DNA of 64,000 nt from the human T2T-CHM13v2.0 reference genome, Homo sapiens. The stretch is from the NCBI RefSeq assembly GCF_009914755.1, contig NC_060930.1; one strand, written 5' to 3'. The notes below the pieces were generated by a model. The model searched no databases and was not told the DNA's origin. It worked only from the letters and a program-made list of their open reading frames with translations. Below are positions 59,136-60,924 of this stretch, one piece after another; the stretch's first letter is position 1; each line of letters opens with the position of its first letter. The translations under genes and the position numbers were made by a program.

Positions 59136-60379
59136 ATAAAATTCTTTTGAGCTGCTTTGAGCTTCTCAGAAGTCTAAAAGAAAACCAAAAAACAAAACAT
59201 TGCCTAAACCTAGCTCTTCCTTTACTCACCATAGGGAGCTTTTCCTGTCCTGGCATCCCATGCCCCCACACCCTACTCCCACCCCTTCCCCACCCCTCAG
59301 TTACCCTTCAGCTTTGTCATATTCCCAGTGTGGCAACACTGGACTGCAACTTTCAGTATCTCCAGTGCCTGGCACAAGGTTAATGCTCAGCTGTTATCTG
59401 AATTAGAGTTTAGAGAGGATGTGGATGGAGTCACAGATTGGTTTTTCTTTTAATTCAATTGGGAGATAGTGTTGACTGTCATTACTGTTACAAAATTATT
59501 TGTATGAATTGAGGGAAGTGCAGACTGTCTGAGAAAACAAATGAAGACTGGTGTTCTGAATAGAGAATCATACTCAAAATTAACTGGACTTTCTCACTTC
59601 CCAATTAAAGGGGGTAAGATGCCAGCATTTTAGACATTATTGTTGGAATATCTTTGATAACTCAAAAACATTGTACATTTTGTTGTAGATCAGTTTTTTA
59701 AAGACATGTTTATTTGGAAGATAATGCCATATTAAAGGTCTGAACTAAGCTGTTAGCTTTCAAGCCTTAAGTTTAGAAAGTATACAGTGTACATTTTGAA
59801 ATGGCAGTTGATTTTGTAAAAGGTCTTCAGGTTATTTTTGTAGCTATATCCAAAAATAAATGATGACTATTGGAGTTATTAGAAAGCAAATTATCTCTGT
59901 GCCAGAATGCTGGCTTTGGGAGTTTTTTTTTTTTTTTTTTTGACAACTTATGTTGGGAGAATAACAACCGATAACAGCACACAATAAACATCTCGATGAT
60001 TTGTTTTGTGTTTACTTAAAACAAGTTTATATATTTATAGTCTTGTTCTCAAGTGGCTGACATGAACAGTAAAAGTGATACTGGAAAACTTGTGGGAATG
60101 AATATCCAGCAATTGCCGGAACGCTGATGGTTAACTGGAAATTTAAGTCATTAAAAATCTTCCCAGTGGTTTGCTATGCGCTACTTGAGCTAGACCAGCT
60201 TTCTGCAGCCCACCTCATCCACTGAGCTCCCGAGCTCTGCTTGAAAGCAGGTGAGGACCCTAGCTCATTCCCTACTTGGTCTTCCATTCTACTGTTCCCC
60301 TTCCCAAGCTGCAGTCTGTCCTACCAGGATAAGTTCCTTGTGGTGGCCCTTTTTCTACAGTGAGTGTCTCCAGGGACAC

Positions 60380-60636
60380 TTTTTCTTTTTGAGACGGAGT
60401 TTCGCTCTTGTTGCCCAGGCTGGAGTGCAATGGCGTGATCTTGGCTCACCACAACCTCCGCCTCTCGGGTTCAAGCGATTCTCCTGCCTTAGCGTCCCGA
60501 GTAGCTGGGATTACAGGCATGCGCCCCTATGCCCGGCTAATTTTTGTATTTTTAGTAGAGACGGGGTTTCTCCATGTTGGTCAGGCTGGTCTTGAACTCC
60601 TGACCTCAGGTGATCCGCCCGCCTCGGCCTCCCAAA
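60380..60636 (-). mobile_element. 5'-truncated AluSp (3' partner of the chimera)
   Basis: Sp diagnostics ggtttctccatgttggtcagg, gtttcgctcttgttgccc; lacks the first ~35 nt of Alu. Confidence 0.93.
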
Positions 60637-60649
60637 AAGTAGAAGGAGC

Positions 60650-60722
60650 TGTTTCCGCCCGGTTTTGAACCGGGGACATTTCGCGTGTTAGGCAAACTTG
60701 ATAATTACTACGCTATGGAAAC
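60650..60722 (-). tRNA. tRNA-Val(AAC) retro-pseudogene, 73 nt, no CCA, followed by a 3' trailer ending TTTTT
   Basis: Minus strand GTTTCCATAGCGTAGTAATTATCAAGTTTGCCTAACACGCGAAATGTCCCCGGTTCAAAACCGGGCGGAAACA; 65/73 identical to human tRNA-Val-AAC as I recall it; D-loop GG changed to AA. Confidence 0.93.
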
Positions 60723-60924
60723 CCTGGGACATTTCTAATTAGCCCTGCTTAACTAGTATTTTAATTTGGGCGTCTCATTGCTCAGGTATGTTCCTTTTGC
60801 CTTAGTCACCTAGATATCTTGTAGTCAGTCAGCTAGTTCAGGTTTCTAGCTAAAACAACAACAACTCTTCTCATTAGAATTCACTTGTGTGCGTGTGTGG
60901 CGTCTTTACATGTAAACTTAGGAA

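What the first reader, a model, noticed from the sequence alone, without database searches (positions are those of the whole stretch)
60370..60734. Chimeric retrocopy: 5'-mature, trailer-retaining pre-tRNA-Val(AAC) fused to AluSp within one TSD
Seen (minus strand): TSD, then a complete 73-nt tRNA-Val starting exactly at G+1, no CCA, a 16-nt non-Alu segment GCTCCTTCTACTTTTT, AluSp entered at ...TTT|GGGAGGCCGAGG (first ~35 nt missing), A-tail, TSD. Direct repeats ccagggacactt (60370-60381) and cctgggacattt (60723-60734) match 10/12 and bracket tRNA plus Alu together; none brackets the Alu alone; the site is TT/AGAA-like. Established: Pol III pre-tRNAs end in oligo-U; RNase P generally removes the leader before RNase Z removes the La-bound trailer; A34 of Val-AAC is edited to inosine, which reads as G in cDNA; L1 machinery makes U6-L1-type chimeras by template switching or RNA ligation. 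Inference: this is a fossil of a short-lived nuclear processing intermediate (leader off, trailer on, anticodon still AAC) joined through its U-tail to Alu RNA (shared (AC)TTT at the junction) and integrated in one event in the AluS era. It has the architecture of a tRNA/7SL hybrid SINE, with a tRNA promoter replacing the Alu A-box, and the trailer should barcode the donor tRNA locus. The B-box GGTTCAAAACC survives; the A-box GG is lost.
Basis: partly seen in the sequence, partly recalled or inferred. Interest (0 to 1): 0.9.

Follow-up and report, generated by a model that had tools for sequence, protein, structure and literature searches.

The report
Pre-tRNA-Val fused to Alu retrocopy
A dead copy of a half-processed valine tRNA precursor, still carrying its 3' trailer, was pasted into a TULP4 intron together with a beheaded Alu in one LINE-1 event; it is a neat single fossil of a known kind of accident, not a new mobile element.

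Summary
On the minus strand lie a 12-nt direct repeat, a 73-nt tRNA-Val pseudogene starting at +1, a 16-nt spacer, an Alu lacking its first 37-40 nt, a short A-tail and the second repeat copy (10/12).

New here: the spacer is a genuine tRNA trailer. It matches 14 of 15 bases behind two chr5 tRNA-Val genes. Likeness to these genes starts at +1 and ends at their T4 terminator. The source was therefore a leader-less, trailer-bearing pre-tRNA, joined in sense to a 5'-truncated Alu. It meets the published criteria for L1 template-switch chimeras.

Corrections:
- The best donors and their closest paralogues are Val-CAC, not AAC. The "unedited A34" argument is probably void.
- A T5 Pol III terminator sits between the tRNA and the Alu.
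- No daughter copy exists, so it is not a hybrid SINE.

Five narrow genome scans found no second case. The tRNA part is more diverged than the Alu part, 9/73 against 9/243, which is unexplained. Insertion date and orthologues could not be tested. I rate it a new member of a known kind, of moderate interest.

The parts
60723..60734 (-). 5' target-site duplication copy, AAATGTCCCAGG. It may extend 2 nt further, to AGAAATGTCCCAGG.
   Evidence: (D1) and 33: 10/12 identical to 60370-60381; random placements reach this in 0.51%. It abuts tRNA position +1.
60650..60722 (-). tRNA-Val pseudogene, 73 nt, running from +1 to the discriminator with no CCA. The anticodon now reads AAC.
   Evidence: ARAGORN. 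Rfam tRNA at 32.7 bits. It differs at 9 of 73 positions from the chr5 Val-CAC genes L013/L014, including G18G19>AA in the A box and G57>A in the B box.
60634..60649 (-). Pre-tRNA 3' trailer GCTCCTTCTACTTTT, plus one more T at the junction with the Alu. It ends in a Pol III terminator-type T run.
   Evidence: Its first 15 nt match 14/15 of the sequence directly behind L013 and L014, 13/15 behind L017 and L031, and 10/15 behind L015/L016.
60391..60633 (-). 5'-truncated AluS-type element. It begins at GGGAGGCCGAGG, about position 41 of a full Alu, or 38-40 if some junction T's belong to the Alu.
   Evidence: One search gives the SRP-like hit on the right arm; best other genomic copies are 89-93% identical; 9 substitutions and 1 indel against the consensus of the 20 nearest copies.
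60382..60390 (-). Short A-rich tail, AAAAAGAAA.
   Evidence: It lies between the Alu 3' end and the 3' duplication copy.
60370..60381 (-). 3' target-site duplication copy, AAGTGTCCCTGG.

Best explanation
This is a one-off chimeric retrocopy made by the LINE-1 machinery.

Proposed sequence of events:
1. Reverse transcription was primed at a nicked target, TT/AGAA-like, on the A-tail of an AluS RNA.
2. It ran to about Alu position 38-41.
3. It then switched template onto the 3' oligo-U end of a nuclear pre-tRNA-Val and copied it to its 5' end.
4. That pre-tRNA had already lost its 5' leader, the RNase P step, but still carried its 15-nt trailer, so the RNase Z step had not happened.
5. The composite cDNA was integrated between one pair of 12-14-nt target-site duplications.

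The donor was a gene of the chr5q tRNA-Val cluster, in the lineage of the two present Val-CAC genes at T2T chr5:181.656 and 181.662 Mb. The anticodon A34 is most likely a later C>A change.

The copy was dead on arrival as a mobile unit. The trailer's T run would terminate Pol III before the Alu and its A-tail. It has since decayed further.

Shown: the anatomy, the donor trailer, the exact limits of likeness to the donor, the single bracket of repeats, and the single copy number. Inferred: the template switch itself, its order of events, and the role of L1.
For: Trailer and donor:
- 14/15 trailer identity to L013/L014, in the same register directly after the discriminator base. Chance at a fixed register is about 4e-8 per gene by my own binomial calculation.
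- The exact 15-mer occurs 13 times in the genome. The 7 other copies held as loci, out of 12 other copies, have no tRNA beside them.
- The trailer shares the derived A10 with L013/L014 and C2 with L017 and L031. That is what an old snapshot of the L013/L014 lineage should look like.

RNA-mediated origin:
- Likeness to the donor begins at +1 and ends at the T run.
- The 30 nt upstream differ from every tRNA-Val gene.
- Five hundred nt of each flank find nothing in six donor loci (E at least 0.31).
- Both flanks are single-copy in the genome, so this is not a DNA-level duplication.

Single insertion:
- One repeat pair (10/12) brackets tRNA plus Alu. No pair brackets either part alone (5/12 and 6/12).
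- An A-tail is present only at the Alu end.
- Both parts have the same orientation, with a full-length 5' part and a 5'-truncated 3' part. These are the criteria listed for L1 template-switch chimeras in PMC2104539 (passage).

Junction:
- It is a T5 run where the donor has T4 and the Alu has TTT before GGGAGG. That allows 1-3 nt of shared T's.

Precedents in print:
- U6/Alu chimeras and L1-made pre-tRNA retropseudogenes are on record (PMC4476161, passages).
- tRNA/L1 chimeras, n = 21 (PMC13174262, sections 11 and 17 and the Table S3 tRNA sheet).
Against: - The two parts do not look equally old. The tRNA differs from its donor at 9/73 sites, while the Alu differs from its subfamily consensus at 9/243 sites plus 1 indel (Fisher p = 0.009). 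At non-CpG sites the figures are 5/55 against 4/205 (p = 0.02). Under the most conservative counting p = 0.10. The Alu consensus came from the 20 copies nearest to the query, so the Alu figure is a lower bound. One column was visibly biased, 11 against 8.
- The direct repeats have 2 mismatches in 12.
- The nick site is only TT/AGAA-like if the duplication is 14 nt, and that longer version matches 11/14. If the duplication is 12 nt, the site is AG/AAAT.
- The anticodon does not match the best donors.
- No orthologous empty site could be examined.
- Template switching cannot be told from prior RNA ligation by sequence alone.
Confidence: 0.78

Rival explanations
1. Two separate events. A 5'-truncated Alu inserted first with these target-site duplications. 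Later a pre-tRNA cDNA was captured at a break exactly between the 5' duplication copy and the Alu 5' end, by endonuclease-independent or end-joining capture. Alternatively, an older chimera had its Alu part overwritten by gene conversion from a younger AluS.
For: The tRNA part is about three times more diverged than the Alu part. That is hard to square with strictly equal age and equal rates. The gene-conversion variant would explain it.
Against: - The tRNA plus trailer has no direct repeats and no A-tail of its own (best 6/12).
- Later capture would need a break at the exact junction with no loss of the duplication copy.
- Later capture predicts a younger tRNA part, which is the opposite of what is seen.
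- The shared T's at the junction fit a template switch.
Confidence: 0.08
2. RNA ligation before reverse transcription. The pre-tRNA 3' end was ligated to a 5' fragment end of Alu RNA, as RtcB does for U6 and L1. The fused RNA was then retrotransposed through the Alu A-tail.
For: - The orientation and anatomy are the same as for U6/L1 chimeras.
- RNA ligation by RtcB is one of the routes drawn for sense chimeras in PMC13174262 (Figure 7 legend).
- RtcB is the tRNA ligase (recalled).
Against: - The trailer keeps its whole T4-5 run. That is the mark of a nascent Pol III 3'-OH end bound by La, not of a 2',3'-cyclic phosphate end. This is established knowledge and was not tested here.
- The T overlap at the junction is what microhomology-guided switching gives.
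Confidence: 0.1
3. Retrocopy of a read-through co-transcript. A now lost donor locus had a 5'-truncated Alu directly behind the tRNA terminator. Pol III read through T4 into the Alu. RNase P trimmed the leader, and L1 copied the whole RNA.
For: T4 is a leaky terminator (established knowledge). A sense Alu lies about 780 nt downstream of the paralogue L015.
Against: - L013 and L014 have no Alu in the 1.5 kb downstream that was held. Their only Alu matches lie 1.25 kb or more upstream.
- All five paralogues share non-Alu sequence right after the T run, so the ancestral donor had none.
- The junction pattern finds no such gene.
Confidence: 0.04
4. DNA-level duplication of a tRNA gene, with an unrelated Alu insertion next to it and direct repeats that match by chance.
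For: tRNA genes of the chr5 cluster have duplicated at DNA level many times.
Against: - Likeness is limited exactly to the span from +1 to the terminator.
- The direct repeats abut +1.
- The flanks are unique in the genome.
Confidence: 0.01

Closest known systems
Bipartite chimeric retrogenes made by L1 template switching (Buzdin-type; U6/L1, U6/Alu and others)
   Same: - A full-length cellular RNA copy at the 5' side.
- A 5'-truncated retroelement copy at the 3' side.
- The same orientation, a direct junction, an A-tail, and one pair of direct repeats.
The criteria are as listed in PMC2104539 (passage). U6/Alu examples are mentioned in PMC4476161 (passage).
   Different: - The 5' partner is a tRNA precursor. 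The list of partner RNAs in PMC2104539 (mRNA, rRNA, snRNA, transposable elements, 7SL) does not name tRNA.
- The 3' partner is an Alu, not L1.
- The original catalogue (Buzdin 2003) is not held here, so I cannot exclude that it lists a tRNA case.
tRNA/LINE-1 chimeric insertions (Law and Burns 2026, PMC13174262)
   Same: A tRNA sequence co-inserted with a retroelement inside one pair of target-site duplications by L1 (section 11; Table S3 tRNA sheet).
   Different: - Those 21 cases have L1 as partner. Most are tRNA halves (about nt 1-37) in antisense orientation, read by the authors as twin priming.
- Here the tRNA is whole, in sense, carries its trailer, and is joined to an Alu.
- The words 'trailer' and 'pre-tRNA' occur 0 times in that paper's main text.
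Pre-tRNA and tailless retropseudogenes (Schmitz et al. 2004; Noll et al. 2015, PMC5322556)
   Same: Unprocessed nuclear tRNA precursors copied into the genome by L1. This is taken as evidence that L1 picks up templates in the nucleus (PMC4476161 and PMC5322556, passages).
   Different: - Those copies lack an A-tail and are usually 3'-truncated by internal priming.
- This copy is 3'-complete to the terminator and borrowed its tail from an Alu.
- Schmitz 2004 itself could not be read.
Composite tRNA + 7SL SINEs of galago and tree shrew
   Same: A tRNA-derived head joined to a 7SL/Alu-derived part (PMC3575423, passage).
   Different: - Those are families with many copies and a working Pol III unit.
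- This is one copy with a terminator between head and body.
- It shows how such a fusion could arise, not that one did.

Membership tests
L1 template-switch bipartite chimeric retrocopy | The 5' part is a full-length copy of a cellular RNA. | tested here: met
   The tRNA runs from +1 to the discriminator, followed by the complete trailer to the T run. It aligns end to end with the chr5 genes.
L1 template-switch bipartite chimeric retrocopy | The 3' part is a 5'-truncated retroelement ending in an A-tail. | tested here: met
   The Alu starts at GGGAGGCCGAGG, about position 41 of the full-length Alu 5' ends printed. The A-rich tail lies at 60382-60390.
L1 template-switch bipartite chimeric retrocopy | Both parts are directly joined in the same orientation. 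| tested here: met
   both lie on the minus strand, with no foreign bases between the trailer T run and the Alu.
L1 template-switch bipartite chimeric retrocopy | The whole unit is flanked by short direct repeats at an L1 endonuclease-type site. | tested here: inconclusive
   The repeats are met at 10/12 with no rival bracket. The site reads TT/AGAA only if the duplication is 14 nt (11/14), and otherwise AG/AAAT.
L1 template-switch bipartite chimeric retrocopy | Both parts arrived at the same time (empty site in outgroups). | not testable with these tools
   No primate genomes are held. The unequal divergence of the parts leaves this open.
SINE family (SINEBase definition, PMC3531059) | [quoted passage not shown] | tested here: not met
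   The 25-nt junction of tRNA end and trailer, at up to 3 mismatches, occurs in 7 places. These are this locus, three chr5 genes, one truncated chr5 paralogue and two chance hits without a tRNA. The definition is quoted.
SINE family (SINEBase definition, PMC3531059) | Pol III transcription of the whole unit from the internal promoter. | not testable with these tools
   By sequence, a T5 run lies between the tRNA and the Alu, and the A box is now broken by G18G19>AA. That termination would occur there is inferred from established Pol III behaviour.
Tailless retropseudogene | No A-tail; the 3' end is set by internal priming. | tested here: not met
   The unit ends in an Alu with an A-tail, and the tRNA part is 3'-complete.
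Functional tRNA-Val gene | Intact cloverleaf and A/B boxes, with native gene flanks. | tested here: not met
   There are 9 of 73 changes, including G18G19>AA and G7>A in the acceptor stem. The upstream flank is unlike any tRNA-Val gene. It is not in the RefSeq gene table supplied with the finding.

The most novel reading that the evidence does not exclude
The retrocopy is a faithful snapshot of its donor, anticodon included. On this reading, the ancestor of the two chr5 genes that are Val-CAC today was a Val-AAC gene when the copy was made. A working human tRNA gene lineage would then have switched its anticodon since the AluS era. The same paralogue family already shows one CAC/AAC switch on shared flanks (L015/L016 against L017).

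A wider version: L1 reverse transcriptase regularly jumps onto La-bound, leader-less pre-tRNAs in the nucleus, and fusions like this one are the raw material of composite tRNA/7SL SINEs.
Probability: 0.15. Interest if true: 0.6.

Novelty: new member of a known kind. Interest (0 to 1): 0.35.

Why it matters
- It is a clean natural record of a short-lived nuclear RNA species, with the leader removed and the trailer still attached, being used as a template by the L1 machinery. This bears on where L1 finds its trans templates.
- It shows in one locus the kind of fusion from which composite tRNA/7SL SINEs could start, and also why most such fusions fail: the Pol III terminator is carried along.
- The trailer works as a barcode that names the donor gene lineage and preserves an older state of it.
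- None of this changes the current picture of retrotransposition. It adds a partner pair, pre-tRNA with Alu, that I did not find in print. A search for 'tRNA-Alu', 'Alu-tRNA', 'tRNA Alu chimera' or 'tRNA Alu chimeric' returned 0 papers, a five-term search on tRNA pseudogenes, Alu and trailers requiring any four returned 0, and the L1-anchored catalogue lists 21 tRNA cases, none with an Alu partner.

Tried and rejected
**Exact trailer 15-mer in the genome**
- There are 13 exact places. The 7 other copies that were held as loci have no tRNA. Five further exact places were not fetched.
- None of the 13 lies in the tRNA-Val places found, apart from the window itself.
- The donor was only found once one mismatch was allowed through the tRNA 3' end.

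**Daughter copies**
- None were found.

**Class scans**
- Patterns were a B box, then 11-44 nt, then a T run, then an Alu anchor at five entry ranges.
- One search gave 115 matches, of which 100 were listed. By my reading of the printed strings only the window is a tRNA. Fifteen were not listed.
- One search gave 1 match, the window. One search gave 0.
- One search gave 2 matches, both Alu-internal.
- One search gave 2 matches, one Alu-internal and one without a tRNA.
- These scans need exact motifs and cover only part of the possible Alu entry points. They cannot exclude decayed or differently joined cases.

**Paralogous empty site**
- The flanks are single-copy, so no pre-insertion sequence can be read from a repeat family.

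**A second Val pseudogene next to an Alu piece**
- This is L052 on chr1.
- Its direct repeats are low-complexity, and it seems to keep 7 nt of a leader like that of gene L022.
- It is not the same kind of structure and was left unresolved.

**Idea that the extra tRNA changes are reverse-transcriptase errors next to modified bases**
- Four of the 9 changed positions lie just 5' of positions that I recall as modified in tRNA-Val.
- With my full recalled list the excess is not significant. The list comes from memory, so the idea was dropped.

**APOBEC-type editing of the cDNA**
- G>A occurs at 11 of 100 G's against C>T at 2 of 87 C's on the sense strand (p = 0.02).
- This is suggestive and is kept as a note, not a claim.

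**Sources that were unavailable**
- Earlier findings of this scan were not open.
- Schmitz 2004 and Buzdin 2003 are not held.
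Full report
**1. What is there**

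Read on the minus strand, the locus is laid out as follows:
- AAATGTCCCAGG at 60734-60723;
- a 73-nt tRNA at 60722-60650;
- the spacer GCTCCTTCTACTTTTT at 60649-60634;
- an Alu running from GGGAGGCCGAGG at 60633 to its normal 3' end at 60391;
- AAAAAGAAA at 60390-60382;
- AAGTGTCCCTGG at 60381-60370.

ARAGORN finds exactly one tRNA in the 64-kb window: this one, Val with anticodon aac. Rfam's tRNA model scores it at 32.7 bits against a gathering score of 29. The Alu right arm gives the expected sub-threshold 7SL hit.

The two 12-mers match 10/12. In 200,000 random placements of the same geometry in this window, 0.51% do as well. That background is inflated by A-runs and by the real duplications around other Alus. 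A plain binomial figure for 13 registers is about 5e-4 (my calculation).

Neither part alone is bracketed. The best match is 5/12 for the Alu alone and 6/12 for tRNA plus spacer.
- 37-40 Alu bases are missing, rather than about 35 (counted on the full Alu 5' ends printed);
- the B box has one change.

**2. The spacer is a real tRNA trailer, and the donor can be named**

The human T2T assembly could be searched. The last 22 nt of the tRNA occur at 17 places, 16 exact (including the window) and 1 with one mismatch. I read the flanks of all 17.
- Two genes, at chr5:181,656,7xx (+) and chr5:181,662,2xx (-) (loci L013 and L014), are followed by GTTCCTTCTACTTTTC. This is identical to the window's spacer at 14 of its first 15 bases, in the same register.
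- L017 has 13/15.
- A 5'-truncated paralogue, L031, has 13/15.
- L015 and L016 have 10/15.
- The other genes have unrelated trailers.

The 30 nt upstream of the window's tRNA resemble no gene's upstream flank. BLAST of 500 nt from each side against six donor loci gives nothing better than E = 0.31 over 21 nt. Both flanks are single-copy in the genome.

Likeness to the donor therefore runs exactly from tRNA position +1 to the Pol III terminator. Those are the limits of an RNA that has lost its leader and kept its trailer.

**3. Which donor, and the anticodon**

The five chr5 genes and L031 are old DNA-level paralogues with alignable flanks.
- Over 250 nt downstream, L013 and L014 are 100% identical to each other.
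- They are 78-80% identical to L015/L016 and L017.
- L015/L016 and L017 are 82-83% identical to each other.
- L031 is 69-74% identical to all the others.

The window's trailer shares the derived A at position 10 with L013/L014 only. It shares the C at position 2 with L017 and L031. It therefore looks like an older state of the L013/L014 lineage.

L013, L014, L017 and L031 all read CAC. Only L015/L016 read AAC. By parsimony on that family, the donor was a Val-CAC gene, and the A now at position 34 is one of the copy's own changes. I put this at about 80%.

Even for an AAC donor it would say little. Inosine 34 is already present on early precursors and only increases with processing (PMC4446420, passages read).

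**4. One event or two**

The anatomy meets the features listed for L1 template-switch chimeras in PMC2104539 (Background passage):
- a full-length cellular RNA at the 5' side;
- a 5'-truncated retroelement at the 3' side;
- the same orientation and a direct junction;
- one pair of flanking repeats.

The junction is a run of five T's where the donor gene has four and the Alu has three before GGGAGG. One to three T's may therefore be shared. This fits a nascent cDNA ending in A's that re-anneals to the oligo-U 3' end of the pre-tRNA.

The read-through alternative has no support.
- L013 and L014 have no Alu in the 1.5 kb held downstream.
- All paralogues share non-Alu sequence right behind the T run.

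Ligation by an RtcB-type enzyme, as proposed for U6/L1 (Figure 7 legend of PMC13174262), cannot be excluded. It fits less well with an intact oligo-U end.

**5. What speaks against a simple story**

The two parts are unequally diverged.
- The tRNA differs from L013 at 9 of 73 sites, or 8 if the donor had A34.
- I fetched the 20 genomic Alu copies nearest to this one, out of the 40 scored from 1040 candidates. I compared the window's Alu to their majority consensus. It differs by 9 substitutions and 1 indel in 244 columns.
- Fisher's test gives p = 0.009 for all sites and p = 0.02 for non-CpG sites (5/55 against 4/205). With the most conservative counting p = 0.10.

The Alu figure is a lower bound, because the consensus was built from copies chosen for likeness to the query. 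One column was visibly biased, 11 against 8.

Possible reasons, none tested:
- errors of the reverse transcriptase on a structured and partly modified template;
- faster mutation while the new copy was still transcribed by Pol III;
- later gene conversion of the Alu part;
- chance.

Over the whole insert, G>A changes (11 of 100 G's) outnumber C>T changes (2 of 87 C's) on the sense strand (p = 0.02). cDNA deamination would leave this asymmetry, but I treat it as a note only.

**6. Not a mobile element**

The 25-nt junction of tRNA end and trailer, allowing 3 mismatches, occurs at 7 places. These are the window, L013, L014, L017, the truncated L031, and two chance hits with no tRNA.

A BLAST search with tRNA plus trailer gives 20 matches. 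The trailer aligns only in the five chr5 genes and, partly, in L031. There are thus no daughter copies, and the SINEBase threshold of 100 copies is not met.

The reason is visible in the sequence. The trailer's T run is a Pol III terminator lying between the tRNA promoter and the Alu with its A-tail. A transcript started at the tRNA would normally end before the part needed for retrotransposition. This is an inference from established Pol III termination. The A box has since lost G18G19.

**7. Is it a class?**

I ran five pattern scans of the genome for a tRNA B box, a short gap, a T run and an Alu anchor at different entry points.
- One search gave 115 matches, of which 100 were listed. By my reading of the printed strings only the window is a tRNA.
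- One search gave 1 match, the window.
- One search gave 0 matches.
- One search gave 2 matches, both inside Alus.
- One search gave 2 matches, one inside an Alu and one without a tRNA.

These scans require exact motifs and cover only part of the possible junctions. They show that the structure is not common, not that it is unique.

**8. What is known**

- U6/Alu chimeras, and pre-tRNA retropseudogenes made by L1, are on record (PMC4476161, passages; PMC5322556, passages). The primary papers, Buzdin 2003 and Schmitz 2004, are not held.
- tRNA/L1 chimeras were reported as new in 2026 (PMC13174262, sections 11, 12 and 17). There are 21 loci, mostly tRNA halves in antisense. In the Table S3 tRNA sheet, none has an Alu partner and none lies at this locus.
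- That paper's main text contains neither 'trailer' nor 'pre-tRNA'.
- A search for 'tRNA-Alu', 'Alu-tRNA', 'tRNA Alu chimera' or 'tRNA Alu chimeric' found 0 papers. A search combining tRNA pseudogene, Alu, chimeric, target site duplication and trailer, requiring any four of the five, found 0.
- Composite 7SL/tRNA SINEs exist in galago and tree shrew (PMC3575423, passage).

**9. Verdict**

This is a real and well-preserved chimeric retrocopy: a 5'-processed, trailer-bearing pre-tRNA-Val from the chr5 cluster, joined to a 5'-truncated AluS. It was most likely made by an L1 template switch in one event (confidence about 0.78).

It is a new member of a known kind. It is instructive as a fossil of a nuclear processing intermediate and as a barcode of its donor gene. 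It is not a new element, has no offspring, and shows no sign of function.

Noticed in passing
window 60670-60682 and 60723-60735: The 5' duplication copy with its neighbour base (GAAATGTCCCAGG) matches an internal stretch of the tRNA, positions 41-53 (GAAATGTCCCCGG), at 12/13 (family D5). Against the donor sequence it matches 11/13, because G45>T in the copy added one match. This is probably chance. It played no visible part in the junctions.
   Followed up: partly
L052 (T2T chr1:179,570,563-179,570,635, minus strand) and its flanks: This is a second decayed tRNA-Val (AAC) copy. It is followed by 18 nt, then the first ~38 nt of an Alu, then A10. It is preceded by 7 nt identical to the bases just upstream of the chr6 gene L022. 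Its direct repeats are low-complexity. It may be a leader-bearing copy or an old DNA-level paralogue.
   Followed up: partly
L013-L017 and L031 (T2T chr5:181.65-181.74 Mb): Within one family of tRNA-Val genes with alignable flanks, L015/L016 read AAC, while L013, L014, L017 and the truncated L031 read CAC. This points to an anticodon switch, or a conversion from another Val gene, in a working gene lineage.
   Followed up: partly
window 60391-60722, minus strand: There is a strand asymmetry of changes in the insert. G>A occurs at 11 of 100 G's and C>T at 2 of 87 C's (Fisher p = 0.02). Three of the five non-CpG G>A changes are in GG context. This is compatible with deamination of the first-strand cDNA but is not shown.
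   Followed up: partly
L009, L010, L025 (T2T chr1:121.03, 148.84 and 142.88 Mb): Three chr1 Val-CAC genes share flanks. They are followed by very long T runs, up to about 27 T, directly after a 4-5-nt trailer.
   Followed up: no
window 60488-60539: A weak mir-1268 match (22.8 bits against a gathering score of 83) lies inside the Alu. It is Alu-derived likeness, not a microRNA gene.
   Followed up: no
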